A stretch of 64,000 bases of DNA from a virus (IMGVR_UViG_3300013232_000197:17008-81007), one strand, 5' to 3'. Shown: positions 512-25,047, numbered from the stretch's first letter. Numbers and translations are program-made. Notes: a model not told the origin generated them from the letters alone.

Positions 512-742
512 TTATACAATCGTAAACATTTCGTATTTGTATTCTTTGGACGCCCGTTCAACAAAATAATCAAATGTTTCCATATCACTTGAATGAGCAT
601 TGAACTCACTGATTTCATCCTCGGTAATTCCGAAGAGCTTATGGTAATCGTTTGGCTCAATATATTTTGCATTGGGATTGTTTATTTTAATCCCATGAAA
701 TCCAAAGGTATCGTTGAATACAATCCAGTAGGTCATTTGCAT
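512..742 (-). CDS. hypothetical protein
   Basis: Start overlaps the end of the PARP gene; same strand. Confidence 0.6.
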   Translation of the reverse strand: MQMTYWIVFNDTFGFHGIKINNPNAKYIEPNDYHKLFGITEDEISEFNAHSSDMETFDYFVERASKEYKYEMFTIV

Positions 743-2004
743 TCCAAGAGGTATCGGATATTGACTTGTTTGTTGCGATAAACGATCAGTTCATCATTAT
801 GCAAACTAGAACCTGCTTTGGCCCAGACGCTATCATAACCGCTGGGAGCGCCCGAATAAAGTGAGCTACGAGTTTCGTGAATCTTACCCATAGCAAAGTC
901 GCAGATGAATAGCCAGCCAGCATCACCGCTATTACCTTGACCCCAACGGCCATAAGTGTAACCAAGTGACTTAGTACTGTTAATCGCACCATAGATACCA
1001 TTACCAAACATCTTGCCAGCAATGGCTGCGGTGCTTGGAGGACTGACTTTCAATCCACTCTTGAGAATGGACAGACAGTTGGCTTGTGACGTGCCGTGGA
1101 ATACTTCTTTGATGGGGGACATGCTACGCTCAAAAGCGTGGTCCATATCGTGAATCGTCACCTTGAAGATTTCACGCACTCGCACGTTATCATAGCCATG
1201 CATACGTTTCTTGGACGTTTCAAAGTAGCGGTCCAAGCGGGCACGCTCTGCCATGTCCGTAAGTACATCCAAATCCACTTGGAAGACTTGCTCTTGCTTC
1301 TTAGCGGGAGTACCGGGAGTAACTGGAGCGGCAGTCTGAGTCGCTTGATAGGACGATTCCAATGAGTCAATCAAGTCGTTCTGCTTTTGGATAGCATTGT
1401 CATCGGGGATAACCGACTGAGTGTTGAAACGGCCCATGCCAAGAGACTGAGGAATGAGACGGAGATAGAGAGACAAAAGGCGGTCTGCGTCAGTCCCAAA
1501 CTTGCCATTGCGGACAAGGGGAGCCAGTTTAGCAAGCAAATCACGAGCCTCGGTCAATCCTTCCATTGTGACAATGCCGAGAGGGGTGGCGAACAATCCC
1601 GTGGTGGAGTTGTACGTAATCTGCGTGTTGGCAGTAATCTTGTGGACATTCGCTTGAACGAAGCGGGTAATTAGACGTTCCAACGTAGGGTTGGTAGATT
1701 TGATAAGCTGAGTACGGGCGATGGTATGAAGGTCACGGTCTTTGACCACATTACCAGATGCCAGAGAAGCGGTAGCTGCACCTACGGTTTTCAGTTCGGT
1801 GTACCCCTTCTTCAACTTTTCACGAAATTTCTTTTGGAGGTAGTCATCCCCACCTTGCCATTCACCAGACTCGCCAGTATTCCCGACTCGTCCCCAACTA
1901 GCCTTTACAGTGCCATCGTCAAACAATTGACCAATCCACCATTTGTTGTTGTTATCACTGACCTCGGTTTTGATCAGTTTGACTTCTTTGATTAGAGTTG
2001 CCAT
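733..2004 (-). CDS. WGR-domain poly(ADP-ribose) polymerase (WGR + helical regulatory domain + PARP catalytic domain)
   Basis: N-terminal ASWGRVG (WGR); helical segment PLGIVT..LSLYLRLIP; catalytic H-Y-E triad in FHGT, GKMFGNGIYGA and HNDELIVY. Confidence 0.9.
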   Translation of the reverse strand: MATLIKEVKLIKTEVSDNNNKWWIGQLFDDGTVKASWGRVGNTGESGEWQGGDDYLQKKFREKLKKGYTELKTVGAATASLASGNVVKDRDLHTIARTQLIKSTNPTLERLITRFVQANVHKITANTQITYNSTTGLFATPLGIVTMEGLTEARDLLAKLAPLVRNGKFGTDADRLLSLYLRLIPQSLGMGRFNTQSVIPDDNAIQKQNDLIDSLESSYQATQTAAPVTPGTPAKKQEQVFQVDLDVLTDMAERARLDRYFETSKKRMHGYDNVRVREIFKVTIHDMDHAFERSMSPIKEVFHGTSQANCLSILKSGLKVSPPSTAAIAGKMFGNGIYGAINSTKSLGYTYGRWGQGNSGDAGWLFICDFAMGKIHETRSSLYSGAPSGYDSVWAKAGSSLHNDELIVYRNKQVNIRYLLECK

Positions 2005-2013
2005 AATGGGGTG

Positions 2014-2041
2014 AGTATAGCGTTTTTATATTGGGAGTCAA
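2014..2041 (-). promoter_or_regulatory. sigma70-type promoter TTGACT-16-TATACT, 9 nt before the PARP ATG
   Basis: Read directly from the reverse complement. Confidence 0.75.
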
Positions 2042-2247
2042 GTGCCAAATGTTTGATCCTGGCATTTCTGGCAGATGCCGCTAATCGTAAACTCTTTACG
2101 ACTGAGTGCATCCCTAAACTCGGTATTGGGGTCAATGCTCTTTTTGCAAAAGACGCACTGGTTTGCAGTAATAGATGCTTTGCGGTCAACGCCAGTAAAA
2201 GACGTGAGTAACTGATCTATGGCTGTAGCTTTAGGTGTTGGGTTCAT
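2038..2247 (-). CDS. small CxxC..CxxC (zinc-binding) protein
   Basis: CVFC...CQKC; packed in the operon. Confidence 0.6.
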   Translation of the reverse strand: MNPTPKATAIDQLLTSFTGVDRKASITANQCVFCKKSIDPNTEFRDALSRKEFTISGICQKCQDQTFGT

Positions 2248-2249
2248 TG

Positions 2250-2441
2250 TTAAGGTTTTAGTTGTTCGGTGATTGTTTTAATGGCTTCCTCCCGAGTTGT
2301 CGCTTCAAATGGTTTTACAACTCGTTTAACAAATGGATTGTTGCGACAATCTTCTTCATAATCTTCATGATCACCAAACCATCGTTTGACTTGAATGGTA
2401 TCATTGGCGTGGAGATAACCCCACCACATTAGTTTGTTCAT
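2250..2441 (-). CDS. hypothetical protein
   Basis: ORF 2250..2462; ATG at 2441 (MNKLMWWG) preferred as start. Confidence 0.6.
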   Translation of the reverse strand: MNKLMWWGYLHANDTIQVKRWFGDHEDYEEDCRNNPFVKRVVKPFEATTREEAIKTITEQLKP

Positions 2442-2465
2442 ATGCTTATCTTCATCTCTCAAGGT

Positions 2466-2519
2466 TCACAACCTCATGACCAATAATTCAATCAGAGTAA
2501 AAGCGTTTTTCGTTTTCAT
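2466..2519 (-). CDS. 17-aa prepilin-motif micropeptide or gene remnant (MKTKNAFTLIELLVMRL)
   Basis: Manual translation; AFTLIELLV is the type IV prepilin cleavage/methylation motif; promoter TTGACT-16-TAGAAT (2556-2529) lies 9 nt upstream. Confidence 0.65.
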   Translation of the reverse strand: MKTKNAFTLIELLVMRL

Positions 2520-2765
2520 TGTGGGAGCATTCTACATCATCTGTAAAAAAAGTCAAGGGAGAAGTCAAACTTTTTTTCGCCGATGGAATCGGCCTTCACC
2601 AAAAATGGCAGCAAGCAGGCGTTCTTCTGGAGAAATGGCAAAGACCAAGGATTGTCTGGCTATCTGAGTTGCCCGATAGCAGTAATAGCACTTTGGCCCG
2701 CCTGAGTGGACGGAATGATACCGACATTTTCGTGGTGCAATGGCGAATTGTGGCATAAAAAGAAT

Positions 2766-2982
2766 GGGGTCAACTTGCTTCCGTTACGTCGTTCTTACGA
2801 TGGCACAAGAGAGTTTTGAATTCTGATGTTTGCACTTTGACTTTTGAGATATTGAGAGTTTAAGTTTGAACTACTGTTGGGAAACAGCAGGTATCTTTCT
2901 CTTTATCGTTAAAATAAATCCTTTGAAGGGATTAAAGATGCGCCGAGTGTAGAGGAACGATTTCACTTCCACAAGTTGCCCC
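2766..2982 (-). ncRNA. putative structured RNA downstream of the DIP1984-like gene
   Basis: Terminal helix GGGGCAACUUG/CAAGUUGACCCC, second helix UCGUUC/GAACGA, hairpins AAUCC/GGAUU and CUGCUGUU/AACAGUAG, and a YCAAA-repeat single-stranded tract. Confidence 0.65.
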
Positions 2983-2989
2983 AAATTTA

Positions 2990-3430
2990 TTACACCGTTT
3001 TTGTTGCGTTGTAAACATCCACTTGGTCTTGGAGGGCATTGATTTCCTCCTGAAGCTTCACGACCAAGGCATCACACTTTTCCTGATTGATACAGGAATT
3101 CCAAGTGTAAGTAAGTTTTTCTTGGTTGTAACCTACCGAAGTAATTTCTTCACCTTCCCGCTTATCCAGACCTTGAATGAATGAAATACGTGCTTTCAAT
3201 TCGGCCATACGCTCCAGCATTGGATAGATACCGATATTGGCAACGGTGATCTTACCCTTGAGTTCTCCCAACTGGGTGGATAACTCAAGAATCTTGGCCC
3301 ACACGGCGTCACGGTCCACTTTGGACACGTTATCGTTTCGGCGAGCATTCTCCCGCTGAAGGATTTGCTGTTGACGGACGAGTTCACCGGCGAGACGATT
3401 CTTTTGTTTAAGTGCTTGTGCGAGATTCAT
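2990..3430 (-). CDS. coiled-coil protein resembling the DIP1984 family
   Basis: MNLAQALKQKNRL start, heptad-like helices, C-terminal EINALQDQVDVYNATKTV; promoter TTGACA-17-TAGAGT at 3488-3460. Confidence 0.6.
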   Translation of the reverse strand: MNLAQALKQKNRLAGELVRQQQILQRENARRNDNVSKVDRDAVWAKILELSTQLGELKGKITVANIGIYPMLERMAELKARISFIQGLDKREGEEITSVGYNQEKLTYTWNSCINQEKCDALVVKLQEEINALQDQVDVYNATKTV

Positions 3431-3506
3431 GTTTGGTCCTTTTTGATTAATTCGGGCTTACTCTAACAGATTGTTGGTTGTTTGTCAATGACTTTTTAGA
3501 GAAATC

Positions 3507-4328
3507 TTACCATGCATCATCGTCATCTTTATGATCTGTAGGTATATCTGGTGTTATCATTTGAATGAGAGATGTTTGTGTAGCTGCACAGTCAATACGA
3601 GTTTTTGACATAGCAAAGTAATCTTTACTCATTTCAACCCCAACGAAACTTCTTCCCAGTCTTACGGCAACATCGCCACTAGTACCACTTCCCATAAAAG
3701 GGTCACAGATAACATCATCTTTATAGGAAAAGAGCTTGATGCACCGTATTGGTAATTCGGGTGGGAAAGCAGCAGGATGATCGGAGTTGGTTTGAGGATT
3801 CATGCTCCACAGATTTTTGATATAGGTCATGAAATCTTTGCCACTAATGGTAGATTCTCCTTTTGTTTTTCGTTTCCATTTGGTTTTGTAAAAGACCAAA
3901 ATACATTCATTGGGGTCAATAATAAATGGAGCGGACGCAGACCGCCAAGACCCCCAACAAGTTTTATTGCTTCCCATCTTTTGCCATATGATAGTACGAT
4001 AGTACTTGAATCCTGCGGCTTGACAAATCTCTATGTAATCTGCTGCTACAGGATAGTTGATGTCATCTTCTCCCTTAACTTTATTCAAGTGTTCGGGGGT
4101 AACTGAAAATGGGATATTGATACAAAGACGCCCATCATCGGCCATATAAAGAAACATTTTGGCAATCCATTTTTTACACCACGTCAAATATTGGGCATAA
4201 GTCATTGTATCTACATGCTTATCATATTCAATGCCTACGTTGTACGGTGGTGAGGTAACGACCAAGTTAATCGGTGGCAGTCCATCGAAGTTTGCTTTCA
4301 GGATGTCGTCGTTGATAAGTTTTATCAT
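3507..4328 (-). CDS. orphan N4-C/N6-A DNA methyltransferase (beta class)
   Basis: VTSPPY precedes HPAAFP and DPFMGSGTS; start set at MIKLIND because the -10 box overlaps ATG 4337. Confidence 0.92.
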   Translation of the reverse strand: MIKLINDDILKANFDGLPPINLVVTSPPYNVGIEYDKHVDTMTYAQYLTWCKKWIAKMFLYMADDGRLCINIPFSVTPEHLNKVKGEDDINYPVAADYIEICQAAGFKYYRTIIWQKMGSNKTCWGSWRSASAPFIIDPNECILVFYKTKWKRKTKGESTISGKDFMTYIKNLWSMNPQTNSDHPAAFPPELPIRCIKLFSYKDDVICDPFMGSGTSGDVAVRLGRSFVGVEMSKDYFAMSKTRIDCAATQTSLIQMITPDIPTDHKDDDDAW

Positions 4329-4335
4329 TCGTCCC

Positions 4336-4406
4336 ATTCTGTCATATTCTGCAAGTCAAGTCAAGTATTTTTAGGGCTTGACATTGATGCTGTTATGCGG
4401 TAAGCT
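4336..4406. promoter_or_regulatory. back-to-back divergent sigma70 promoters for the two methyltransferases
   Basis: Plus: TTGACA 4378-17-TAAGCT 4401. Minus: TTGACT 4364-17-CAGAAT 4341. Confidence 0.7.
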
Positions 4407-4415
4407 GATGTCACG

Positions 4416-5213
4416 ATGAATAACAATGCAATCTACTTGGGCGACACGCTCCAACTGTTGAAGTGGTTTCCTGAAAACTTTTTTGACATCACCGTTACTT
4501 CACCGCCGTACAATAAACAGAAGGCAAAGGGTAAACTGGTGAAAGAAGTAAAGTACCTCAAGGCAAATGATGCTCAAGATGAAACGGCTTATCAAGCTGA
4601 ACAGGTTGAAGTGTTAGATCAACTTTTCAGAGTTACCAAACCTGGTGGACATATCTTTTACAATCATAAACTGCGTTGGTTCGATGGTGTTATGGTGCAT
4701 CCTTTGACGTGGGTATCCAAATCGTTGTGGGACATTCGCCAAGAAATCATTTGGGATAGAATCATTGCGGGTAATCTGCGAGGATGGCGTTTCTGGCAAG
4801 TTGAGGAACGTATCTATTGGATGCAAAAGGGAATTACCAAAGGAGAAGAATTAGCGAGTAAGCACGCCAAAATGACTTCTATCTGGAGAATGTTTCCTGA
4901 GAATAAGTTTCCCAATCATCCAGCACCATTTCCAGTTGAATTGCCCACTCGTTGTATCTATAGCATTGCGAATGACAAAAATGGATTAAATATTTTGGAC
5001 CCATATTGTGGTACTGGTTCAACACTAGTCGCTGCCAAAACACTTGGGCATAACTATGTCGGGATTGATTGCTCTCAGGAATATATCGATCAAGCAAAAG
5101 CGAGATTGCAGAGTGCTAGTGGAGCGGTGGAAGCATTGCATGAAGTAGCACTTCATACTGTAAACAAAACGTATAAGGAACGGAAGGCAGCGAAAAAACT
5201 TCGAGAAAAATGA
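4416..5213 (+). CDS. orphan N4-C/N6-A DNA methyltransferase (beta class)
   Basis: VTSPPYN, HPAPFP, DPYCGTGST. Confidence 0.92.
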   Translation: MNNNAIYLGDTLQLLKWFPENFFDITVTSPPYNKQKAKGKLVKEVKYLKANDAQDETAYQAEQVEVLDQLFRVTKPGGHIFYNHKLRWFDGVMVHPLTWVSKSLWDIRQEIIWDRIIAGNLRGWRFWQVEERIYWMQKGITKGEELASKHAKMTSIWRMFPENKFPNHPAPFPVELPTRCIYSIANDKNGLNILDPYCGTGSTLVAAKTLGHNYVGIDCSQEYIDQAKARLQSASGAVEALHEVALHTVNKTYKERKAAKKLREK

Positions 5214-5312
5214 TGTTTTTCGTTTTGAGTACATACTTAATATCAGAAGCCCGAAGCTTCCCTAATAAGAGTGAACGCTAAAATCCCTCTTGAAAATTTT
5301 GCAAAATAGTCC

Positions 5313-5340
5313 TTGACTTTTCTTGTACATGTGCTATGAT
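5313..5340 (+). promoter_or_regulatory. promoter TTGACT-16-TATGAT with extended -10 TG
   Basis: 7 nt before ATG 5348. Confidence 0.75.
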
Positions 5341-5347
5341 GTTACCC

Positions 5348-5632
5348 ATGATAAGAGAAATAATGATCAAGCCAGTGTTGAATGGATTTGTTTGCAAAGT
5401 CGGTTGTCAGACAGTAGTGTTTGGAGATACTCTTACTTTGTCTCGGGAAATCAAAGCATATTATGATAATCCCGAGGCCACTGAGGCAAAATTTCTGGCG
5501 AAAGCGGTCAATAAGACCAATGATGGTCCGTGTATGCCAGAACCAGAACCAGCGCCGTGCGATGCGCCTCCAACACGATTGAATCGGATTACAAATGACT
5601 GTTGTGCCACAGAAGCACCGGCACGAAGATAA
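5348..5632 (+). CDS. hypothetical protein
   Basis: ORF with a leaderless promoter. Confidence 0.7.
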   Translation: MIREIMIKPVLNGFVCKVGCQTVVFGDTLTLSREIKAYYDNPEATEAKFLAKAVNKTNDGPCMPEPEPAPCDAPPTRLNRITNDCCATEAPARR

Positions 5633-5638
5633 TAGTAC

Positions 5639-5666
5639 TTGACATTTTCCGTGGTTGTGATATAGT
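5639..5666 (+). promoter_or_regulatory. promoter TTGACA-16-TATAGT; may also drive the ncRNA array
   Basis: 9 nt before ATG 5676; no terminator seen before 5878. Confidence 0.75.
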
Positions 5667-5675
5667 TGAGTTATT

Positions 5676-5873
5676 ATGACAAATGAAGATTTTTTAGAAT
5701 GGAACGCCGCCGTAGATCGATTGGCAAAGGAAATGCGTCCAACCCGCCTTGGGCCTATTACGGCACAAACGTTTATGGAAGAGGCCGAAAAGATGTTTAA
5801 GGAAAATGGTTGGAATTTTCAGGTGTATATTTCGGTCGGTGAAAGCGCATACCGAGCCAGAATGCCATTGTAA
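5676..5873 (+). CDS. hypothetical protein
   Basis: ORF with a leaderless promoter. Confidence 0.65.
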   Translation: MTNEDFLEWNAAVDRLAKEMRPTRLGPITAQTFMEEAEKMFKENGWNFQVYISVGESAYRARMPL

Positions 5874-6113
5874 TTTTGAGATGCATACAGCATATACCTT
5901 TAATGGAAAAGCGCATCTCGTTGTTTTAACGCTCCGACTAACCATCGGATAGTGGCAGAGGTACCTCCCACGAAAGGAAGCCGGTATGGTGCTGGCAGAG
6001 GAACTTCGGTGGTGGCTCCTGTAATAGGGAGTGTGCGCCGAGAACCAATTTCGTAGTGGTAGTCCGTGTAAAAGGGACTTTTGGCAAGGTAACGCCGACA
6101 CCACCGCTACATT

Positions 6114-6126
6114 TGATCTTTTGAAA
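6114..6126 (+). promoter_or_regulatory. boxA-like antitermination sequence TGATCTTTTGAAA
   Basis: Resembles the boxA consensus with one extra T; lies inside the ncRNA region. Confidence 0.3.
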
Positions 6127-6698
6127 TACAATTTGAGTGTCAGGAGCATTGGCTCCGATGGTGTCAACCGACCACAATCAAACTGGTGGTGAATCCACCT
6201 AACCTATCAAGGCATAGGCAACACCGTGGCACTCGTCAATTTAGGTCCGTACAGCAACAAAACCAAATTCATCTAAACATGAAAAAGAACGGAGATACTG
6301 GCATACTCCACCTATTCAGTTAGGAGAAATCTCAAGTGCTCTGAGGACGAACAGTAAACGTCTGGACCTAGCTCAATTTTAGATGCGTAACTGCAACACA
6401 AAAAATATCTAGTCGGTGGACCCGACACAAAACAATAACCCGGAAGTCTAACTGTAAAATGATATGCATCTAGTCACTTAAAAGAAGGGTTGATATCTGT
6501 ATGCCGTTAAGGATATTTTACCCGTGTTAAAGCCTATGGCAGCGGTTCACAAAGCTGTAGGAAAGATTTGCATAGTTGTTAGAAATAACATAAGTAATCA
6601 TCCTTCAAAATGGATAATGGATAAAAAAGGATGCGCTTATTCCGTAAAGCTATCCGACAAAGGACCAATGGAGTCGCTATCCAAGCAGGAATAAGTTG

Positions 6699-6727
6699 TT
6701 GACAGACTACCATTACTATGCGATATT
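6699..6727 (+). promoter_or_regulatory. promoter TTGACA-17-GATATT; predicted start at the 5' end of the last RNA unit
   Basis: Perfect -35, TG extended -10; unit 4 begins at 6732. Confidence 0.55.
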
Positions 6728-6795
6728 TTGTAAGATACTATCAGCAATTAGTTCTAGTATCTTGAACCCGAAAACAAAGAAAGGAAACATCCGTT

Positions 6796-8355
6796 ATGAA
6801 GAACACTCGTACTGCAACTCGTAAAGCAACTCAGTTTGTCCCTATCTCCACTCCTGCCAATCCCTTCGTGAAGGCAATGCAGGTTCAATCTAACTATGGT
6901 TTGACCGAGAAGGGTGCCCTCACCAATCGCAGCACTTTGAATGAAGTGTTGGACTTCTTTGGTGCTGGTGGAGCTATTCGTACCCGTTCAGATGCGGACG
7001 TTATCGCTCTTTTCTCCAAGGCATTCGCTCAGGACCGTCTTTTGGCCACCAAGATTCTGTTTTATTTCCGTGATGTCCGTCAGGGACAAGGAGAGCGTAA
7101 GACCTTCCGCACTTTGATCAAGTGGCTTGCTCAAAACTATACTGATGTGGTTCGTAGGAACCTCGAAAACATCGCTTTCTATGGTCGCTATGACGACATG
7201 TACGCCCTTATGGGTACTCCCCTTGAGGCAGAAGTGTTTGCTCTGTTTGCAACTCAGTTGAAGGCCGACCTTCGCAACATGAAGAAGGGAGAAAGTGTAT
7301 CTTTGCTCGCCAAGTGGTTGAAGTCTGAGAATACTTCTTCTCCTGAGTCTCGTGCCTTGGGTTACAAGACCCGTAAGGCATTGGAGTTGACGCCGAAGCG
7401 TTATCGTAAGATTCTGTCGGCACTCCGTAAGCATATTGATGTTCTTGAAGTCAAGATGTGTTCCAACGAGTGGGCCAGCATTAACTTTGAGAAGGTACCT
7501 TCCAAGGCATCTCTCAATTACCGCAAGGCTTTTGGTAAGCACGACCAAGAGCGTTATGCTGCCTATCTCAAGTCAGTTGAGAAGGGCGATGCTAAGATCC
7601 AGGCGGGGGCAGTATATCCTTACGAAATCCTTCGTGCCATCATTGGAAAAAGTTCGTGGGGTCTCAGTGCTGTGTCCGTGGATCCACAAGCAGCCTTGGC
7701 CGCAGACCTTATGTGGAAGGCAATGCCTAACTGGCTTGCTGGAAATGAACACTATGGGCTTGTCATCGCCGACGTGTCGGGTTCTATGTTCACCAATGAC
7801 ATGCTCCCAATCTTGGTGTCGGTATCTCTTGCAATGTATTTTGCTGAGCGCAATGTAGGTCCTTTCAAGGACTTCTGGATGAATTTCAGTGGCTCGCCCA
7901 CGTTCCAGAAGTTGGTTGGTAACAACCTCCTTGAAAAGTATAACAACATGGATAAGCGCAACTGGTCCGGTACGACTAACCTCCAGTCGGCCTTTGACCT
8001 TATCCTTTCAACCGCAGTACAAAACAAGGTTCCTCAGAAGGAAATGCCTTCGTGTTTGTATATTGTTTCGGACATGGAGTTTGATCAAGCTTGCGAAAGC
8101 AACAGCAAGACCAACTTCGATGTTATGAAGCGTAAGTTTGAGCGTTATGGATACGAACTGCCTCGGGTAGTTTGGTGGAACGTCGCTTCTCGCAATGACA
8201 ACTTCCCAATTCGTGCAGACGAAAACGGAACTGCATTGGTATCGGGTGCTTCACCAAGCATCCTCAAGTTTTTGCTCAGTGCGAAGAGCTTCAGTCCAAT
8301 GGACATCGTTTACGAGACGGTTAATAGCCCTCGTTACGAGCGTGTCGTTGTGTAA
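6796..8355 (+). CDS. DUF2828-family TROVE-like (Ro60-related) protein with a vWA domain
   Basis: LTEKGA, FYFRDVRQGQGER, YGRYDD, AKWLKSE, VPSKA, AGAVYPYEI; vWA MIDAS DVSGSM, TNLQ, SDMEFD. Confidence 0.85.
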   Translation: MKNTRTATRKATQFVPISTPANPFVKAMQVQSNYGLTEKGALTNRSTLNEVLDFFGAGGAIRTRSDADVIALFSKAFAQDRLLATKILFYFRDVRQGQGERKTFRTLIKWLAQNYTDVVRRNLENIAFYGRYDDMYALMGTPLEAEVFALFATQLKADLRNMKKGESVSLLAKWLKSENTSSPESRALGYKTRKALELTPKRYRKILSALRKHIDVLEVKMCSNEWASINFEKVPSKASLNYRKAFGKHDQERYAAYLKSVEKGDAKIQAGAVYPYEILRAIIGKSSWGLSAVSVDPQAALAADLMWKAMPNWLAGNEHYGLVIADVSGSMFTNDMLPILVSVSLAMYFAERNVGPFKDFWMNFSGSPTFQKLVGNNLLEKYNNMDKRNWSGTTNLQSAFDLILSTAVQNKVPQKEMPSCLYIVSDMEFDQACESNSKTNFDVMKRKFERYGYELPRVVWWNVASRNDNFPIRADENGTALVSGASPSILKFLLSAKSFSPMDIVYETVNSPRYERVVV

Positions 8356-8377
8356 ACAATGAGTGTAGAAAACCAAG

Positions 8378-8408
8378 GACCCTCGCCTTCGGGCGGGGGT
8401 CTTTTATT
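8378..8408 (+). terminator. intrinsic terminator
   Basis: GACCCTCGCC-TTCG-GGCGGGGGTC followed by TTTTATTT. Confidence 0.85.
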
Positions 8409-8410
8409 TC

Positions 8411-8439
8411 TTGACAGCAAGTTGGTTTTGTGGTATAGT
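8411..8439 (+). promoter_or_regulatory. promoter TTGACA-17-TATAGT
   Basis: Directly after the terminator. Confidence 0.75.
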
Positions 8440-8478
8440 TATGGAAAGATGGTTTAATTGATTATCTGCTTAATAGTT

Positions 8479-9786
8479 ATGAATTCACGCAATCCAAACA
8501 CGGCCAAAACATTGGCCAAAAAATACTCATTGGCTACTTCGTCTAAACGAGCACATTCTGTCTTTGTGGGCAGTGTGCCAACCGAAATAGTCAACGACAT
8601 TGTAAACGCAACTCTTTTTCATGCTTATGAGAAGTTGAATCAGAAAGTTCGGGAGCAATGGTTACGAACAAAGAGGGTTCCTCGGGAGTATGAGGAACTT
8701 ATTCGGCTGAAACAGCCGGGAAGAAAACGATTTCCAATGAATTTTGAAACGGATAGCATAAAGGGTGTCAATCCCCAACTATTGGCGGAATGGAAGAACA
8801 AAGTGGTGTGCATGGACTGCGTTGAAGGTATGAGGCAACTGCCCGAGGCATGTACCGATTTAGTTGTATTTTCTCCACCATACGATGCTTTGCGGACATA
8901 TGAAGGGAAGCCAGAATTCGACCTCCATCGCACGGGAGAGCAAGTGTACCGCATTCTTAAAGATGGTGGTATGTGTGCTATGGTCATTCAAGACCAGACC
9001 AAGGATTTTGGAAAATCCATGACCAGCTTCAAGACTGCGGTAGATTGGGTTGAACGTTTTGGATTCAAACTTTTTGAATGCGTTATCTATCATAAGAATG
9101 GCACCGAGGGAGCGTGGTGGAAGAATAGGTTTCGGGTTGACCACGAGTACATCTTTCTCTTTTTGAAGGGCGCACGTCCACTCTATTTCAATAAAGAGCC
9201 GTTGAAGATTCTGAGCAAGCATGGTGGAAAGGTCATGAGTGGTTTCGCTACTCGCAAAACCAACGGGAAAACTAACAAGTCTATCACCAAGATGATTAAC
9301 CCAACCAAGTGTCGTGGAACGGTGTGGGACTATATGTGTGCAGGCGACAAGAATAAAATCAAACGACAACATCCCGCCCCGTTTCCGGACAAAATTCCCT
9401 ATGACTTGATTCAATGTTTCTGCCCCGAAGGTGGATTGGTAATTGACCCATATATGGGAAGCGGATCAACCGCTGTGGCAGCGATAAAGCTTAATAAGTC
9501 ATTTATGGGGTTTGACATATCTCAGAACTACATTACTGAGATTTCCGAAAAGAGAATTGCCGAGGCATACGCTCAGTTGAAGGAACCGCTCGCCATCTCT
9601 CCGGTAATGGATGATGCCGATGCATTGACTGCCAAAGCGGGTGGCATCTGCCAAACAGTCATTGACCTTATGGACAGCAATCTCACAGAAGACGAGAAGA
9701 AATCTATACTTAAACAGTTTGAAACTTTAACAAAAGAAACCTTAATTCAAATCAATGATAACTCAAACACAAATTCTAGCGAGTAG
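8479..9786 (+). CDS. orphan DNA methyltransferase (beta class) with N- and C-terminal extensions
   Basis: VFSPPYD, HPAPFPD, DPYMGSGST. Confidence 0.9.
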   Translation: MNSRNPNTAKTLAKKYSLATSSKRAHSVFVGSVPTEIVNDIVNATLFHAYEKLNQKVREQWLRTKRVPREYEELIRLKQPGRKRFPMNFETDSIKGVNPQLLAEWKNKVVCMDCVEGMRQLPEACTDLVVFSPPYDALRTYEGKPEFDLHRTGEQVYRILKDGGMCAMVIQDQTKDFGKSMTSFKTAVDWVERFGFKLFECVIYHKNGTEGAWWKNRFRVDHEYIFLFLKGARPLYFNKEPLKILSKHGGKVMSGFATRKTNGKTNKSITKMINPTKCRGTVWDYMCAGDKNKIKRQHPAPFPDKIPYDLIQCFCPEGGLVIDPYMGSGSTAVAAIKLNKSFMGFDISQNYITEISEKRIAEAYAQLKEPLAISPVMDDADALTAKAGGICQTVIDLMDSNLTEDEKKSILKQFETLTKETLIQINDNSNTNSSE

Positions 9787-14057: not shown

Positions 14058-14086
14058 TTGACAAGTTGGCCTTCGTAGTTTAGAAT
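14058..14086 (+). promoter_or_regulatory. promoter TTGACA-17-TAGAAT for the J-kinase operon
   Basis: 7 nt before ATG 14094. Confidence 0.75.
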
Positions 14087-14093
14087 GTGTGCC

Positions 14094-15107
14094 ATGATTA
14101 AGACAGATTGGTATCAGGTTCTTGAAGTTAATCCCCGAGCTAGACCCGAAGTGATTACTGCGGCGTACCATGCTCTGATGAAACAACATCATCCCGACGT
14201 TGACCACGCTACGGTTGGTGTTGTTGCTCGTGATCTCAATGAAGCCCACGATACTTTGACTGACCCTCGCAAGCGTAAGGAGTTTGACCGAGAGCGTAGT
14301 CCGGGTGCTGGCAAGATGATTGGGCCGTACAAGGTACAGGAAATCATTGCCGAAGGCGGATTTGGACGTACCTACAAAGCACAGCATTCCATTCTCAAAG
14401 AGTTGGTTTGCATCAAAGACTGCTCCAATGTTTCTCTCGCCGACACTGGAATGCTTATTGAAGAGTGTAAAGTACTGTGGGATTTGCGTCATTATGCCCT
14501 TCCTGCTATGCGTGATTTGATACAGTTAGATGACGGTCGGGTGCTGCTTGTTATGAGCTATATTCCCGGTCTAACTTTGGAAAAGGAAGTCAAGCGAGTC
14601 GGTGCATTGGAGCCAGAAACCGTTGCTTGGATTACTGAGCGTATTCTGAATGCTCTTAACTATATCCATCGCCACGGTGTCATTCACGGAGATTTGAAGC
14701 CCCAGAATATCATTGTGCAAGAAGATCGGCACATGGCGGTCTTGGTGGATTTTGGTCTTTCCTTGGTCAAGCCTTCAAGTGCTTCCGAAGCAAAAGGATT
14801 TACTCCTTACTTTGCCCCTCCCGAAGAGATTGCGGGCAGACCGCTCATTCCTGAGTCTGATTACTACAGTCTTGGAATGACGATGATTTATGCTTTATCG
14901 GGTGGTCCCGAGTACGTAGAGCGAAAGCAAGTACCCAGTGATGTCCCCGATGAACTTTGTGCTTTCATTAAGCGATTGATTGCACGAGATGTAAACTCCA
15001 GACCTCAGTATGGCAAAGAGGATCTTTGTGATACTATTGTGGAGTTGCGAAAGAAAGTGTTTGGACGCCATCGTTCAGGCATGAAACCCATCGCTGGAGT
15101 TAGTTAA
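14094..15107 (+). CDS. J-domain (DnaJ) fused to a Ser/Thr protein kinase
   Basis: DWYQVLEV..HHPDV (HPD motif); kinase GGFGRTY, VCIK, HGDLKPQN, DFG. Confidence 0.92.
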   Translation: MIKTDWYQVLEVNPRARPEVITAAYHALMKQHHPDVDHATVGVVARDLNEAHDTLTDPRKRKEFDRERSPGAGKMIGPYKVQEIIAEGGFGRTYKAQHSILKELVCIKDCSNVSLADTGMLIEECKVLWDLRHYALPAMRDLIQLDDGRVLLVMSYIPGLTLEKEVKRVGALEPETVAWITERILNALNYIHRHGVIHGDLKPQNIIVQEDRHMAVLVDFGLSLVKPSSASEAKGFTPYFAPPEEIAGRPLIPESDYYSLGMTMIYALSGGPEYVERKQVPSDVPDELCAFIKRLIARDVNSRPQYGKEDLCDTIVELRKKVFGRHRSGMKPIAGVS

Positions 15108-19097: not shown

Positions 19098-19261
19098 CGC
19101 CGTTTATCACAGTATCAAGAGGAATGTGTGGGTTTTATATTTGTCTTGCGGATGACGCAGGACCAATCGAACGATTGGAAAATTGGAATTACGACACGTA
19201 TGATGAATGTGCCATAGAAGCAGAAAAATTGGCCAATGCCTACAATATAAGATACCTATGA
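19094..19261 (+). CDS. hypothetical protein (55 aa)
   Basis: ATGA overlaps at both ends. Confidence 0.55.
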   Translation: MTPFITVSRGMCGFYICLADDAGPIERLENWNYDTYDECAIEAEKLANAYNIRYL

Positions 19262-20439
19262 GTAATAAAAACTTTTACTTCACCGACCCTTTGATTGGCC
19301 AAGGACTTCCAGTCCTGACCAAAAACGGAGCAATTGCCAAGAAGCGATTGGCTGATTACATTGAGAAACTCCTTCTGGAAAGAAACTATACGCCGCTGGC
19401 GACACCGCATATTGGAAACTTGGCTCTGTTTGAGAAGAGTGGGCATTATCCTTATTACAAGGAGTCAATGTTCCCTCTTATTTATGAACACGTCAAAGAT
19501 GGGCAACCCAATCCTTATGATCGTTTTGTTCTAAAACCAATGAACTGCCCGTTTCATATCATGGCTTACAAGGATATGGGTGTGGTATCCTATAAGGAAC
19601 TACCCGTCAAGTTCTATGAGTTTGGGCAAGTATATCGCAATGAAGATTCGGGTGCTCTCAACGGATTGCTACGTCTCCGCTCCTTTACTCAGGATGATGG
19701 ACATCTCTTCTGTATGATGAACCAGATACATGAAGTAATGGAAGAGTGTATTGTACTGGTGCGTATTATCTGTGAGAAGTTTGGATTGAAAGTGGTTGCC
19801 AAGTACTCCAAGCGGGGAGACAATAAAGAGAAGTATATCGGTGATGGTGCTTCTTGGGGTGCTGCTGAAGATGTTATGCGCTCGGTATGCTACAAGAACT
19901 TTGGAGACGATTACCAGATGGATGTTGGCGGTGCGGCCTTCTATGGACCAAAGATTGATTTTGCTGCCAAAGATGCGATGGGCAGAGAGTGGCAACTGGG
20001 TACCATTCAACTGGATTTCAATCTACCTAAACGCTTCGATCTACATTTCATTGACAACGATGGAAGTCAGCAAGTGCCGGTGCTAATTCATCGGGCATTG
20101 CTTGGGTCTTTGGAAAGATTCTTGGCTATTCTTTTGGAAAACGATTGTCTTCACGAACATCTTCAGCCCTTCAATATGGGAATGATTTGGATTGGGGGAG
20201 GGAAGGATTATTTCGATCTTATCGTTTCAGAGTCGAAACGACGTGTTCATGTTTATCCAACCATCATTGAGATGCCCAATAATCTAAAAGAAGCGATGGC
20301 CAAACTGTTTTCCAAAGGTATCAGTAACATTGTTATCATTGGCAAAAAGGAAGAAGAGGCACAGACCGTGAACTTCAATAAAACTGCATTTTCGCATGAA
20401 GAATACTTTGATCATGCGAGTAGAAAATTTACCCTATGA
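19258..20439 (+). CDS. thrS: minimal threonyl-tRNA synthetase (no TGS or editing domain)
   Basis: LKPMNCP, YRNEDSGALNGLLRLRSFTQDDGH, FYGPKID, GTIQLDF, IHRALLGSLERF. Confidence 0.9.
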   Translation: MSNKNFYFTDPLIGQGLPVLTKNGAIAKKRLADYIEKLLLERNYTPLATPHIGNLALFEKSGHYPYYKESMFPLIYEHVKDGQPNPYDRFVLKPMNCPFHIMAYKDMGVVSYKELPVKFYEFGQVYRNEDSGALNGLLRLRSFTQDDGHLFCMMNQIHEVMEECIVLVRIICEKFGLKVVAKYSKRGDNKEKYIGDGASWGAAEDVMRSVCYKNFGDDYQMDVGGAAFYGPKIDFAAKDAMGREWQLGTIQLDFNLPKRFDLHFIDNDGSQQVPVLIHRALLGSLERFLAILLENDCLHEHLQPFNMGMIWIGGGKDYFDLIVSESKRRVHVYPTIIEMPNNLKEAMAKLFSKGISNIVIIGKKEEEAQTVNFNKTAFSHEEYFDHASRKFTL

Positions 20440-23228: not shown

Positions 23229-23738
23229 ATGAATTACAATCAATTAAATCAAATTCACGATTACTGGTATGAGGACGTAGCTCCTCATTTAGTCCACCAA
23301 TACACGGTTACTTCGTTTGATGATTACTTGAGAAAGTTTTCATTTCTACCAAGTGGGAAATGGTTGCGTGATATGGAAAACTTGAAATTAAGACGAGTAA
23401 TCTTTTTGGTTGACCCCGTAAAGTTTGCTAAGAAGTACAAAGAGTTTTGTGTCACATACAATGCCCCCGTCAAAGTAGAGGATGGGTTTCAGAGAGTTAT
23501 TTATCAAATTTCACCGACGATGCATATTGAGGCGGCTTTCTATGTGTGGATCGAGCATAAAATAGTACAATCCTACGTCACAGTATTTGTTTGTTACGAT
23601 GTCAGTGTAGAAAAAGAATATGCAACCCTTATCAAGGACTTGTATAAAATCCGTCGAGAAGGTAACACTGAAGATAAACCAAAATCGGTGGGGTTTGCTG
23701 GTTTCCAAGATGTTGATGCAGAGGATAATACAAAGTGA
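23229..23738 (+). CDS. hypothetical protein
   Basis: Packed ORF. Confidence 0.65.
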   Translation: MNYNQLNQIHDYWYEDVAPHLVHQYTVTSFDDYLRKFSFLPSGKWLRDMENLKLRRVIFLVDPVKFAKKYKEFCVTYNAPVKVEDGFQRVIYQISPTMHIEAAFYVWIEHKIVQSYVTVFVCYDVSVEKEYATLIKDLYKIRREGNTEDKPKSVGFAGFQDVDAEDNTK

Positions 23739-23781
23739 GATGGTACTTGACTTTTTCCTGGAATGGAGTAAACTGCACACC

Positions 23782-25047
23782 ATGAATCAAACATCACTGT
23801 TCACATTTCAGTTGCCCACACTCTATGCTCGTGCCAAAACGGGTGCTGTCCTTACGTGGGACATTGAGATTGAGGGTAACAAGTTTCGTACTATTACTGG
23901 ACAAGAAACTGGAGCTAAAACGACTTCTGCGTGGACCATCTGCGAAGGCAAAAACCGTGGTCAATCCAATGAAACAACGGATGAACAACAAGCCAATGCC
24001 GAAGCGGATAGCAAGTGGAAGAAGAAACTTAAGTCGGGTGGATATTTTGAGGACGTGAAGGACATTGACAAGCCATTGTCTTTCATTGAGCCAATGCTTG
24101 CCTATCCTCTTATCAGCAAGAAAACAGATAAGAAAACCAAGAAAACCATCATCATTGACCGCACTCCTTATGTGGTGCTTCCTGTAATGCTTGACCGCAA
24201 GTACAATGGAATGCGTCAGGTGGCTTCGGTCGTTGGCCCGTATTCTCGCAAAGGTGAGGAAATCAAAACTGCCCCTCATATCTATGATGCTCTCACTCCA
24301 TTGTTTGAGAAAATCCCGACCTTGGTATTGGACGGAGAGTTGTACAACCACGAGTATCGTCATAAGTTGAATGAACTTATCCACATTGTCCGTACCACTG
24401 CGGACCATAAGATTACTCCCGAATTGCTGGCCGAAAGCGAACGTGTTGTCCGCTACTATGTGTATGATGGATATGGGTTTGAATGCCCCGAGAACATCAA
24501 GGTTATGGATAGCGGGATTCCCATAATGGGTATGGTTGCGGGAAATCTTGTCACGGAGAATACTCCCTGTGCATTGCGACGTGAAGCATTGAAGGTGCTG
24601 TTGAAAAATGTACCTTACATTGTCGTAGTTCCTTACTTCATGTCTAAGACAATGGAAGAGGCAAAGGAACTCTATGGTGACTTCATTGAAGACGGATACG
24701 AGGGAGCAATCCTTCGCAATGCCAGTGCGCCGTACCAGCACTTCCGTACCAACGACTTGATCAAACTCAAGCCATACGAAGATATGGAAATCGTCATTCT
24801 TGATGTCATTGATCCCGGCTCTGGTAACTGGGGAGGTACAGGAAAAACTGCTTCTGTCCGCATGGACAATGGCAAAGTATTCAATGCTACCTTCAAAGGT
24901 GGGCGTGAGACTTTGGCCAAGATTCTCCAAGAGAAGGATAAGTGGATTGGTCAAAAAGTGACCATCACTTACAATGGGTGGACGGGCAAAGGTTGTCCCA
25001 ACTATGCCCAGATTGATCCTAACAACTGTATGGTGGGAGACCGATAA
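23782..25047 (+). CDS. ATP-dependent DNA ligase with a WGR-like N-terminal domain
   Basis: Motif I DRKYNGMR, DGELY, YVYD, EGAIL, KLKP, OB-fold; promoter TTGACT-16-TAAACT (23747-23774) 7 nt upstream. Confidence 0.92.
   Translation: MNQTSLFTFQLPTLYARAKTGAVLTWDIEIEGNKFRTITGQETGAKTTSAWTICEGKNRGQSNETTDEQQANAEADSKWKKKLKSGGYFEDVKDIDKPLSFIEPMLAYPLISKKTDKKTKKTIIIDRTPYVVLPVMLDRKYNGMRQVASVVGPYSRKGEEIKTAPHIYDALTPLFEKIPTLVLDGELYNHEYRHKLNELIHIVRTTADHKITPELLAESERVVRYYVYDGYGFECPENIKVMDSGIPIMGMVAGNLVTENTPCALRREALKVLLKNVPYIVVVPYFMSKTMEEAKELYGDFIEDGYEGAILRNASAPYQHFRTNDLIKLKPYEDMEIVILDVIDPGSGNWGGTGKTASVRMDNGKVFNATFKGGRETLAKILQEKDKWIGQKVTITYNGWTGKGCPNYAQIDPNNCMVGDR

What the first reader, a model, noticed from the sequence alone, without database searches (positions are those of the whole stretch)
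2766..3430. DIP1984-like coiled-coil gene with a closed ~217-nt RNA carrying YCAAA quasi-repeats: candidate RNP system
Seen: starting 8 nt after the stop, the minus strand folds end to end (GGGGCAACUUG with CAAGUUGACCCC). Next come an internal loop with GGAAG on both strands, helix UCGUUC/GAACGA, two hairpins and an unpaired tract UUCAAA-CUUAAA-CUCUCAAUA-UCUCAAAA-GUCAAA-GUGCAAA-CAUCAGAA-UUCAAAA (about 8 units). This is far larger than a terminator. Inference: the periodic tract could be a binding track for repeated subunits of the adjacent all-helical protein, giving an RNA-templated oligomer or filament of unknown function (anti-defence, abortive infection or RNA sponge).
Basis: partly seen in the sequence, partly recalled or inferred. 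Interest (0 to 1): 0.8.

Follow-up and report, generated by a model that had tools for sequence, protein, structure and literature searches.

The report
Phage protein gene with partner RNA
Right behind a small helical-protein gene, this fragment of a very large phage encodes a real, strongly conserved 217-base folded RNA that matched no Rfam family or paper I could search; gene and RNA travel together in phages and bacteria, often next to RNA-repair genes, so they probably form an undescribed protein-RNA particle.

Summary
On the minus strand, 2982-2766, a 217-nt RNA closes end to end, 8 nt after the stop of a 146-aa gene. A covariance model built from 25 relatives finds 47 copies in 100 sources, 35 of them full length. 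All seven modelled helices covary: 86.5% of cells are paired, against 37-46% when partners are slid.

One correction. Two pyrimidine blocks of the "unpaired tract" pair with a conserved upstream core (helix P7). The eight AA doublets at 7-nt spacing still stay unpaired.

The protein has the DIP1984 fold (3KDQ, Z 12.0) but scores below the family's sequence cut-offs. It is predicted to form an antiparallel dimer.

No Rfam family, tRNA scan, defence library or searched paper matches the RNA. The RNA follows relatives of this gene down to about 25-40% identity. The next gene is RtcB, RtcA, an RNA ligase or RlaP in several lineages. In the window's own clade a small CHCC zinc protein follows the RNA, and a WGR-PARP gene lies further downstream.

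Best reading (0.55): a dedicated protein-RNA particle acting in RNA-damage control. Binding, expression and function are not shown.

Earlier notes of this scan report the same kind of module on other DNA in more than 40 genomes.

The parts
3460..3488 (-). sigma-70-like promoter (TTGACA, 17 nt, TG-TAGAGT) in front of the protein gene
   Evidence: 10 of 12 matches with an extended -10 TG. No promoter-like site lies between gene and RNA. This is a consensus match only.
2990..3430 (-). 146-aa DIP1984-fold protein gene (helix 3-27, helix 40-86, beta-hairpin 93-110, helix 116-143)
   Evidence: ORF. (AlphaFold2, pLDDT 95.6). (best PDB match 3KDQ: TM 0.60; Z 12.0 over 140 residues). (317 near-length relatives; 975 representative clusters). 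(28 of 36 relatives touch NF038048 below its cut-off).
2766..2982 (-). 217-nt structured non-coding RNA (model hit 2764-2984)
   Evidence: 194 bits, E 2e-39, the only hit in the window and in the 81-kb record. All seven modelled helices covary.
2971..2983 (-). P1 closing stem, 5' arm. The partner arm is 2765-2778, with one bulged A.
   Evidence: helix 1: 13 pairs, all with double-sided changes, 95.3% of cells paired.
2765..2778 (-). P1 closing stem, 3' arm
   Evidence: helix 1. The arms differ completely between relatives yet stay complementary.
2961..2970 (-). purine-rich internal loop, 5' strand (GGAAGUGAAA). The opposite strand, CGUAACGGAAG, is at 2779-2788. The loop contains a 2-bp covarying helix, P1.1.
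   Evidence: helix 2 (19/269: AU 23, GU 7, GC 6; 20/268: UA 16, CG 12). The G.A-type pairing of the rest is inferred from the sequence and not tested.
2898..2907 (-). conserved core GAUAAAGAGA, the 5' strand of helix P7 (GAUA + GAGA around an AA/AA internal loop)
   Evidence: helices 5 and 6. The middle pair is CG 12, UA 9, UG 7, GU 6. GAGA/UCUC is nearly invariant.
2871..2890 (-). P6 hairpin inside P7, variable in sequence and length
   Evidence: helix 7: 6 pairs, all with double-sided changes (for example CG 17, GC 11, AU 6, UA 6).
2917..2933 (-). P5 hairpin (AAUCC / GGAUU)
   Evidence: MFE fold. A hairpin is visible at the same place in relatives. It is not in the model because the alignment is loose there.
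2808..2870 (-). array of eight YAA units at about 7-nt spacing. Units 2-3 supply the 3' strand of P7 (2848-2857). Units 4-8 (2813-2847) are predicted single-stranded.
   Evidence: consensus: AA doublets nearly invariant, spacings 7,7,8,7,7,7,7. (almost no indels across 36 sequences). (chains of 6 or more units in 61% of 113 downstream regions, against 2.4% of 4064 control windows).
2565..2756 (-). 63-aa small protein with a C-x2-H ... C-Y-Y-C zinc-knuckle-like motif and a PEExLLxxIFG helix. Its start codon lies 10 nt after the end of the P1 stem (7 nt after the model hit's end).
   Evidence: the ORF starts 4-14 nt behind the RNA in about 24 of 31 clade loci, counted by eye. (tblastn hit in 27 loci). 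No Pfam, PHROG or PADLOC family.
733..2004 (-). WGR + PARP-regulatory + PARP-catalytic protein on the same strand. It is a conserved downstream neighbour in the window's clade.
   Evidence: PF00644 2.2e-23; WGR 4e-06. (same position in L003 and L005). (found in 25 loci).

Best explanation
This is a three-part cassette of a very large phage. A small DIP1984-fold protein gene is followed on the same strand by a gene for a 217-nt closed, multi-helix non-coding RNA, and then by a tiny CHCC zinc protein gene.

Proposed mechanism:
1. The RNA is probably read from the protein gene's own promoter.
2. It folds into a compact body closed by a 13-bp stem. The body displays eight unpaired AA doublets at 7-nt spacing and a purine-rich internal loop.
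3. The protein, predicted to be an antiparallel dimer, binds this RNA, so the two form a dedicated protein-RNA particle.
4. Judging from its neighbours in other lineages (RtcB, RtcA, RNA ligase, RlaP, WGR-PARP), the particle acts in the response to broken or damaged RNA. It would be a functional counterpart of the Ro60/Y-RNA pair, for example as a scaffold, sensor or decoy during phage-host RNA warfare.

What is shown: the RNA's structure is conserved, it sits on the gene's sense strand, and it is linked to the gene.
What is inferred: co-transcription, protein binding, any release from the mRNA, and the role in RNA damage.
For: (1) The RNA is real. R1 gives 47 hits, 35 of them full length, all on the gene's strand. 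86.5% of cells pair against 37-46% slid, with 343 double-sided changes against 57-89. G.U cells outnumber A.C cells 134 to 54, so the folded strand is the gene's sense strand.

(2) The RNA is linked to the gene.
- It follows the gene in every clade member that has enough sequence. It persists when 161-1099 nt of other ORFs are inserted.
- Distant relatives (25-40% identity; huge phage LR756511, Verrucomicrobia, Victivallales) carry analogous closed RNAs with YAA-type units.
- Heptad YAA chains occur in 61% of downstream regions against 2.4% of controls.
- Reverse test: 5 of 11 IMG/VR matches to an RNA-core pattern fall on contigs already fetched through the protein gene, where the model hits. 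The 6 new loci have no full-length model hit (one weak partial, 19.9 bits) and no gene.
- The downstream gene varies while the upstream gene is constant.

(3) One transcription unit is plausible. There is a promoter-like site before the gene and none between gene and RNA. The spacers are 7 nt and 9 nt.

(4) The protein is confidently folded (pLDDT 95.6).
- Self-association prediction: ipSAE 0.53 against 0.10 for the best of 3 controls.
- That mark was reached by 20 of 30 proteins solved as pairs of one chain and by 1 of 23 solved as single chains.
- The runs agree in at least 94% of contacts, and the partner pLDDT is at least 82.
- 3KDQ is a solved relative, so the pass may reflect likeness to it.

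(5) RNA-repair context.
- The next gene is RtcB (PF01139, 8.9e-106), RtcA (1.6e-75), RNA_ligase (1.2e-11) or RlaP (1.7e-05) in different lineages.
- RtcB occurs in 21 loci, mostly PVC-bacterial MAG contigs, and PARP in 25 loci of the window's clade.
- The window's own 81-kb record has three PF09414 RNA-ligase genes. The window also holds an Rnl1-like ligase and a class II aminoacyl-tRNA synthetase.

(6) Weak hint of expression. In a freshwater-sediment metatranscriptome, one 223-nt contig that is 95-99% alike covers 2764-2966. That is the RNA and not the flanking genes.
Against: - No experiment or prediction here shows that the protein touches the RNA.
- The predicted oligomer is a dimer. It is not a ring or filament that would naturally read eight repeats.
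- Expression rests on a single short contig from an RNA library that may contain DNA. No start, end or level of the RNA is known.
- The link to RNA repair is guilt by association. In the window itself no repair gene is adjacent: the RNA ligases lie about 9-10 kb and 44-48 kb away, and no RtcB is found in the 81-kb fragment.
- The tight packing between two ORFs would also suit a cis-acting mRNA element.
- The alignment used for pair counts was fitted to the model, which favours the structure.
Confidence: 0.55

Rival explanations
1. The RNA is a cis-acting part of the messenger, not a free partner RNA. As a structured spacer it would stabilise the upstream gene's mRNA and control translation of the small ORF that starts just after it. 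This could work by hiding or exposing that ORF's initiation region in the 3' arm of P1. The protein might bind it only for autoregulation.
For: The RNA sits 7 nt after one ORF. The next ORF's start codon lies 4-14 nt after the RNA in about 24 of 31 clade loci. No separate promoter or simple terminator was found.
Against: - The downstream gene is not constant. It is RtcB, RtcA, RNA ligase, GTP cyclohydrolase, HD, a methylase or others, and the RNA stays with the upstream gene.
- The RNA is kept when 161-1099 nt of foreign ORFs separate it from that gene. A simple 3'-end stabiliser would not tolerate this.
- A body of about 217 nt with seven covarying helices and a length-invariant eight-unit array is far more than translation control needs.
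Confidence: 0.15
2. The RNA works without the DIP1984-fold protein. It could be a decoy or sponge for a host factor that reads A-rich single strands or RNA ends, such as an RNase toxin, Hfq, S1 or Rho. It could also self-assemble with other copies through its exposed adenines. The protein gene would then be a co-regulated neighbour only.
For: The eight exposed AA doublets and the C-over-G, unstructured run at 2813-2847 resemble binding tracks for general RNA-binding proteins. Some phage RNAs are known to act alone (own knowledge).
Against: The pairing with this one protein family holds across phages and PVC bacteria at 25-40% protein identity while every other neighbour changes. That is hard to explain by co-regulation alone. 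No candidate host target was tested.
Confidence: 0.15
3. The RNA is the Y-RNA-like partner of the DUF2828/DUF7788 protein encoded 3.4 kb away (6796-8355). That protein matches PHROG 850, annotated 'RNA-binding protein'.
For: The RNA has a closed stem joining its 5' and 3' ends, as in Y RNAs. The DUF2828 gene is also present about 4.7 kb from the module in L003/L004. PHROG 850 matches at E 1.5e-147.
Against: - No Rfam Y_RNA or YrlA match, even at E up to 10.
- No tRNA-like module.
- DUF2828 was found in only 5 of the fetched loci. It is absent within 6 kb in L005, which has the RNA. Most flanks were too short to see a gene 3.4 kb away, so this count is weak.
- In the PVC-bacterial loci, the gene that always precedes the RNA is the DIP1984-fold gene.
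Confidence: 0.05

Closest known systems
Ro60 (Rsr) with Y RNAs (YrlA/YrlB) in the Salmonella rsr-yrlBA-rtcBA RNA-repair operon (PMC4201824; PMC7790460)
   Same: A stable non-coding RNA whose 5' and 3' ends pair in a long stem is encoded beside its presumed protein partner. In several lineages it lies directly in front of rtcB or rtcA.
   Different: - The protein is a 146-aa helical DIP1984-fold dimer, not a TROVE/vWA ring.
- There is no Rfam Y-RNA match and no tRNA-like domain.
- The RNA carries a heptad AA array and a conserved purine core, which Y RNAs lack.
- Partner binding and function are untested.
DIP1984 family / Pfam DUF6847 (NCBIfam NF038048; crystal structure 3KDQ, Corynebacterium diphtheriae)
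   Same: Same length and topology (helix, long helix, beta-hairpin, helix). 3KDQ is the best structural match: Z 12.0, rmsd 4.5 A, 140 residues aligned. Foldseek gives TM 0.60.
   Different: The window protein scores 11.2 bits against a cut-off of 70 and has no Pfam hit, so it is a distant branch. The family has no known function, and I found no paper that links it to an RNA.
TRAP with the trp leader, and HutP with the hut leader (Bacillus; from my own knowledge)
   Same: Short sequence units are repeated at a fixed small spacing on a single strand. In those systems each unit is read by one subunit of a homo-oligomer.
   Different: Those are cis-acting attenuators bound by ring proteins of unrelated folds. 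Here the array sits inside a closed 217-nt RNA, part of it is base-paired, and the protein is predicted to be a dimer. Reading of the units by the protein is not shown.
TnpB / IscB with omega RNA (PMC10278001)
   Same: The partner RNA is encoded at the 3' end of the protein's own gene and, in TnpB, is processed out of its own messenger. That is the same genomic logic as here.
   Different: There is no nuclease domain, no guide segment and no transposon ends. The resemblance concerns biogenesis only and is inferred.
Large phage-borne structured RNAs such as GOLLD and ROOL (Rfam; from my own knowledge)
   Same: These are conserved, complex non-coding RNAs carried by large phages that are rich in translation and RNA-repair genes.
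   Different: There is no Rfam match. This RNA is much smaller (217 nt) and is tied to one specific protein gene.

Membership tests
DIP1984 family (NCBIfam NF038048) / Pfam DUF6847 (PF20935) | Sequence match to the family model above its curated cut-off | tested here: not met
   Window protein: NF038048 E 0.3, 11.2 bits against a cut-off of 70. No Pfam hit at E 0.01. Of 36 diverse relatives, 28 touch NF038048 (best 3.4e-09) and 7 touch PF20935 (best 1.9e-05).
DIP1984 family (NCBIfam NF038048) / Pfam DUF6847 (PF20935) | Fold of the founding structure 3KDQ over the full length | tested here: met
   VIA-align gives Z 12.0, rmsd 4.5 A, 140 of 146 residues; the next row is 9.4. Foldseek gives TM 0.60, probability 1.00, E 9.6e-03.
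Y RNA / YrlA (Rfam Y_RNA and bacterial Y-RNA families) | Match to the Rfam covariance models | tested here: not met
   No family reaches its gathering score in the 64-kb window. Nothing in 2000-9000 overlaps the RNA at E up to 10.
Y RNA / YrlA (Rfam Y_RNA and bacterial Y-RNA families) | tRNA-like module (YrlA type) | tested here: not met
   ARAGORN finds no tRNA or tmRNA in the window.
Y RNA / YrlA (Rfam Y_RNA and bacterial Y-RNA families) | Encoded next to a Ro60/TROVE gene and bound by it | tested here: inconclusive
   A DUF2828/DUF7788 protein (PHROG 850, 'RNA-binding protein') lies 3.4 kb away. It is absent within 6 kb in L005. Binding cannot be tested here.
Type III toxin-antitoxin RNA antitoxins (ToxI type) | Tandem direct repeats of about 30-40 nt placed before an endoribonuclease toxin gene | tested here: not met
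   The units are 6-8 nt. The RNA lies behind a helical protein with no nuclease family match.
Oligomer-read periodic RNA (TRAP / HutP type) | Short units repeated at a fixed spacing on an accessible strand | tested here: met
   There are eight AA doublets at 7,7,8,7,7,7,7 nt, nearly invariant in 36 full-length relatives and all outside helices.
Oligomer-read periodic RNA (TRAP / HutP type) | Partner protein is a ring-shaped homo-oligomer with one unit-binding site per subunit | tested here: inconclusive
   The four-copy prediction gives a symmetric antiparallel dimer: 0.53 against 0.10 for the best control. Higher assemblies on RNA could not be modelled.
Intrinsic terminator | Short GC-rich hairpin with a loop of 3-8 nt directly followed by a U run | tested here: not met
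   No minus-strand terminator-like site lies at the RNA; the only one within it is on the opposite strand at 2874-2890, the mirror of hairpin P6. The element is 217 nt long with seven covarying helices.

The most novel reading that the evidence does not exclude
A new class of ribonucleoprotein, spread through large phages and bacteria; earlier scan notes, which I did not test, also place it in archaea. In it a closed (possibly even circularised) RNA presents a ruler of 7-nt AA units. The ruler organises several DIP1984-fold dimers, plus a zinc-knuckle protein in this clade. The particle would sense, shield or decoy broken RNA ends for RtcB, RNA-ligase or PARP pathways. It would be a non-homologous counterpart of Ro60/Y RNA.
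Probability: 0.3. Interest if true: 0.9.

Novelty: categorically new. Interest (0 to 1): 0.78.

Why it matters
If the pair is a particle, it adds a whole protein-RNA machine to the short list of bacterial and phage ribonucleoproteins.

- It would give a first functional handle on a large orphan protein family: 975 representative clusters, a crystal structure since 2009, and no known function.
- It would suggest that many large phages and PVC bacteria carry an unrecognised component of RNA-damage control beside RtcB, RNA ligases and a WGR-PARP.
- The RNA has a rich covariation record and a strictly spaced AA ruler, so it is a ready target for structure work.
- The three-part cassette is only about 930 bp (2560-3490), so the idea can be tested directly by co-expression and pull-down.

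Tried and rejected
- **Known RNA families.** Rfam at gathering scores over the whole window gave nothing, and neither did E up to 10 over 2000-9000 at the RNA. The weak hits at 8293-8501 are a terminator-like hairpin behind another gene. ARAGORN found no tRNA or tmRNA.
- **Protein libraries.** PADLOC and PHROGs gave nothing for the 146-aa protein or the small zinc protein. A profile of 36 relatives against PDB sequences gave only a chance hit, E 0.58.
- **Locus search.** The closer alignment A2 worked.
- **Phage records.** DNA and protein searches of INPHARED phages gave only one distant protein hit, LR756511.
- **Sequencing runs.** All holders carry small shares only.
  - The laid contigs show no joints, so nothing here speaks for or against a circular form.
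  - The 18 loose letters past the RNA's 3' end in the metatranscriptome contig do not match the RNA's 5' end.
  - Parts without cover prove nothing.
- **Terminators in bacterial loci.** By eye, GC-rich hairpins followed by U runs lie behind the RNA in Victivallales loci. The simple scan did not flag them, so I make no claim.
- **Short-pattern search.** A short RNA-core pattern gave 6 extra IMG/VR matches. None has a full-length model hit (one has a weak partial hit of 19.9 bits) and none has the gene, so I read them as chance matches.
- **MAFFT + RNAalifold.** This alone recovered only P1. Helices P2 and P3 align poorly between sub-clades: P2 is 67% paired, and P3 was left out of the model.
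- **Literature.** No paper holds DUF6847. DIP1984 and 'septicolysin' appear only as plasmid annotations. No paper joins RtcB with such an RNA motif.
- **Readings considered and dropped.** 6S RNA, retron msr/msd (no reverse transcriptase nearby), omega RNA (no TnpB/IscB) and a type III antitoxin.

Full report
**What is there.** The window is part of an 81-kb IMG/VR virus record that CheckV rates 23% complete, so the phage is probably very large.

On the minus strand, in order, lie:
- a sigma-70-like promoter at 3488-3460 (TTGACA, 17 nt, TG-TAGAGT);
- a 146-aa ORF at 3430-2990;
- 7 nt of spacer;
- a 217-nt non-coding stretch at 2982-2766;
- 9 nt of spacer;
- a 63-aa ORF at 2756-2565.

Two further small ORFs and a WGR-PARP gene (2004-733) follow on the same strand.

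**Check of the observation.** The stretch folds end to end with MFE -54.1 kcal/mol, z = -3.1 against dinucleotide shuffles.

The decisive evidence is comparative. The 146-aa protein has 317 near-length relatives at E <= 1e-3, on contigs up to 364 kb. I fetched loci from viral contigs, genomes and metagenomes. A stretch with the same layout was visible behind almost every relative.

A 25-sequence seed (A6) gave a covariance model of 218 positions and 39 pairs (R1).
- Over the window plus 99 non-redundant loci it finds 47 copies. 35 are full length, and every one is on the gene's strand.
- It finds exactly one copy in the window and one in the whole 81-kb record.
- 86.5% of cells form standard pairs, against 37-46% when the 3' partners are slid by 1-3 columns.
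- 343 cells show changes on both sides, against 57-89 for slid partners.
- The covariation score is 0.439, against 0.07-0.10 for slid partners.
- No shuffle of 500 reaches any observed measure, and all seven helices contain double-sided changes.

The alignment was fitted to the model, which favours it. However, the closing stem alone takes quite different sequences in different relatives while staying complementary. G.U cells outnumber A.C cells 134 to 54, so the folded strand is the gene's sense strand.

**Anatomy.**
- P1 is a 13-bp closing stem with one bulged A.
- Next comes a purine-rich internal loop (GGAAG on both strands). It holds a 2-bp helix that covaries U-A to C-G.
- P2 (UCGUUC/GAACGA), P3 and P4 lead into a multi-branch centre.
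- The centre holds hairpin P5, a nearly invariant core (CGAnAAAGAGAAAGAU) and hairpin P6.

The new point is helix P7. The n/n' pair changes U-A, C-G, G.U. So units 2-3 of the tract are partly paired.

The eight AA doublets nevertheless all stay outside helices. One of them sits in the AA/AA internal loop of P7. Their spacing is 7,7,8,7,7,7,7 nt and is nearly indel-free across 36 sequences.

**The protein.**
- Pfam, NCBIfam, PHROGs and PADLOC give no hit at normal thresholds.
- 28 of 36 diverse relatives touch NCBIfam DIP1984_fam below its cut-off, and 7 touch DUF6847.
- AlphaFold2 with 109 sequences gives pLDDT 95.6 with the order helix, long helix, beta-hairpin, helix.
- The best solved match by two methods is 3KDQ, the DIP1984 protein. 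Foldseek gives TM 0.60. VIA-align gives Z 12.0 over 140 residues, with the next row at 9.4.
- 'DIP1984-like' is therefore right by fold. By sequence this is a distant branch of a very large family of 975 representative clusters.
- A four-copy prediction supports self-association as a symmetric antiparallel dimer along helix 2.
  - ipSAE is 0.53 against 0.10 for the best of three controls.
  - The mark was reached by 20 of 30 proteins solved as pairs of one chain and by 1 of 23 solved as single chains.
  - The runs agree in at least 94% of contacts, and the partner pLDDT is at least 82.
  - A relative has been solved, so the pass may come from likeness. The prediction says nothing about RNA.

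**Linkage.**
- The RNA stays with the gene where ORFs have been inserted between them, with gaps of 161 to 1099 nt. A conserved flank (U)AAACAAUUU still precedes P1 in those loci.
- The gene downstream of the RNA varies widely.
- In the Verrucomicrobia clade (about 38% protein identity) a separate alignment shows an analogous RNA. It has a covarying closing stem of about 35 bp, hairpins, a YCAAR tract with its last unit in a hairpin loop, and then RtcB.
- A model-free count finds chains of six or more YAA units at heptad spacing in 69 of 113 non-redundant downstream regions. The same holds for 2.4% of 4064 control windows. Most failures are loci where the RNA lies further downstream.
- In the reverse direction, 5 of 11 exact matches to an RNA-core pattern in IMG/VR fall on contigs already fetched through the protein gene, where the model hits. 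The 6 new loci have no full-length model hit and no gene.

**Context.**
- The gene directly after the RNA differs by lineage:
  - RtcB in Victivallales and Lentisphaerae loci;
  - an RtcB-like 520-aa protein in Verrucomicrobia;
  - RtcA in a Victivallis MAG;
  - a PF09414 RNA ligase in a 369-kb phage;
  - RlaP in another phage.
- By tblastn, RtcB is present in 21 loci, mostly PVC-bacterial MAG contigs. WGR-PARP is present in 25 loci of the window's clade, and the small zinc protein in 27.
- The window's own record has three PF09414 ligase genes.
- The window also holds an Rnl1-like ligase, a class II aminoacyl-tRNA synthetase, a DNA ligase and an NAD-salvage enzyme.
- The theme is repair of, or response to, broken nucleic acid. 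This is association, not proof.

**Expression.** Public runs hold only small shares of the stretch. In one freshwater-sediment metatranscriptome a single 223-nt contig, 95-99% alike, covers 2764-2966. That is the RNA and neither flanking gene. No joints were seen. This is a weak hint at best, because such libraries can contain DNA and contigs show no ends.

**Reading.** I commit to a dedicated protein-RNA particle encoded as one cassette and acting in RNA-damage control (0.55). Each rival below has evidence that speaks against it:
- A purely cis-acting mRNA element (0.15). The variable downstream genes and the tolerated insertions argue against it.
- A protein-independent decoy or self-assembling RNA (0.15). 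The fidelity of the pairing with this one protein family argues against it.
- A Y RNA for the nearby DUF2828 protein (0.05). The lack of any Rfam match, and loci that have the RNA but no DUF2828 gene, argue against it.

**Known or new.** No Rfam family and no paper I could search describes the RNA or links the DIP1984 family to an RNA.

Earlier notes of this scan report DIP1984-like genes followed by heptad-repeat RNAs in more than 40 other genomes. Some of those sit before RtcB, and one has a claimed circular form.
- I confirmed the RtcB link on my own loci.
- I could not test circularity.
- I did not test the T5 or archaeal cases.

What this window adds:
- a deep, well-aligned clade with strong covariation;
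- helix P7;
- the AA ruler;
- the conserved zinc-knuckle third gene;
- the WGR-PARP synteny.

Noticed in passing
window 2466-2519 (-): A 17-codon ORF starts with a type IV pilin-like signal (MKTKNAFTLIELLV) and is preceded by a promoter-like site at 2556-2529. Relatives have a full 101-118-aa protein with the N_methyl motif at this position (L003 6895-7200, L006 3372-3725). The window's copy therefore looks truncated.
   Followed up: partly
window 733-2004 (-) and 36022-37194 (+): There is a phage WGR + PARP-regulatory + PARP-catalytic protein, syntenic with the module in 25 loci. A nicotinate phosphoribosyltransferase (NAD salvage) lies in the same window. Together they suggest NAD-consuming ADP-ribosylation by the phage.
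   Followed up: partly
window 6796-8355 (+): A DUF2828 + DUF7788 protein matches PHROG 850, 'RNA-binding protein', at E 1.5e-147. It may be a Ro-like RNA binder. No Y-RNA-like Rfam match lies nearby. A terminator-like GC hairpin with a U run follows the gene at about 8375-8408 and accounts for the weak Rfam hits there.
   Followed up: partly
window 3507-4337 (-), 4416-5213 (+), 8458-9786 (+): Three N6/N4 DNA methyltransferase genes lie within 7 kb. The same methylase cluster flanks the module in relatives (L003, L005).
   Followed up: no
window 14085-15107 (+): A single ORF fuses a DnaJ domain to a Ser/Thr protein kinase domain.
   Followed up: no
window 19207-20439 (+), 23620-25047 (+), 47067-47558 (+), 50767-51873 (+): The window holds a class II aminoacyl-tRNA synthetase core, an ATP-dependent DNA ligase, a PF09414 RNA ligase and a T4 Rnl1-like RNA ligase. 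Two more PF09414 ligase genes lie 7-8 kb before the window's start in the same record. No tRNA gene lies in the 64-kb window.
   Followed up: partly
L077 3447-4546, L083 2491-3403, L086 (between gene and RNA): In several relatives an ORF of about 0.9-1.1 kb, apparently on the opposite strand, is inserted at the same point between the protein gene and the RNA. L080 keeps only a short remnant of the insert's end. This looks like a mobile insertion, perhaps a homing endonuclease.
   Followed up: no
L001 3486-3575: In the 595-kb uncultured phage LR756511, a 29-codon lysine-rich ORF (MAKGKTPKKEPKK...) lies between the distant DIP1984-like gene and its RNA.
   Followed up: no
window 2038-2247 (-) and 2250-2462 (-): Two small ORFs lie between the module and the PARP gene. 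The first has two CxxC pairs (zinc-ribbon-like) and matches PHROG 19722 of unknown function.
   Followed up: no
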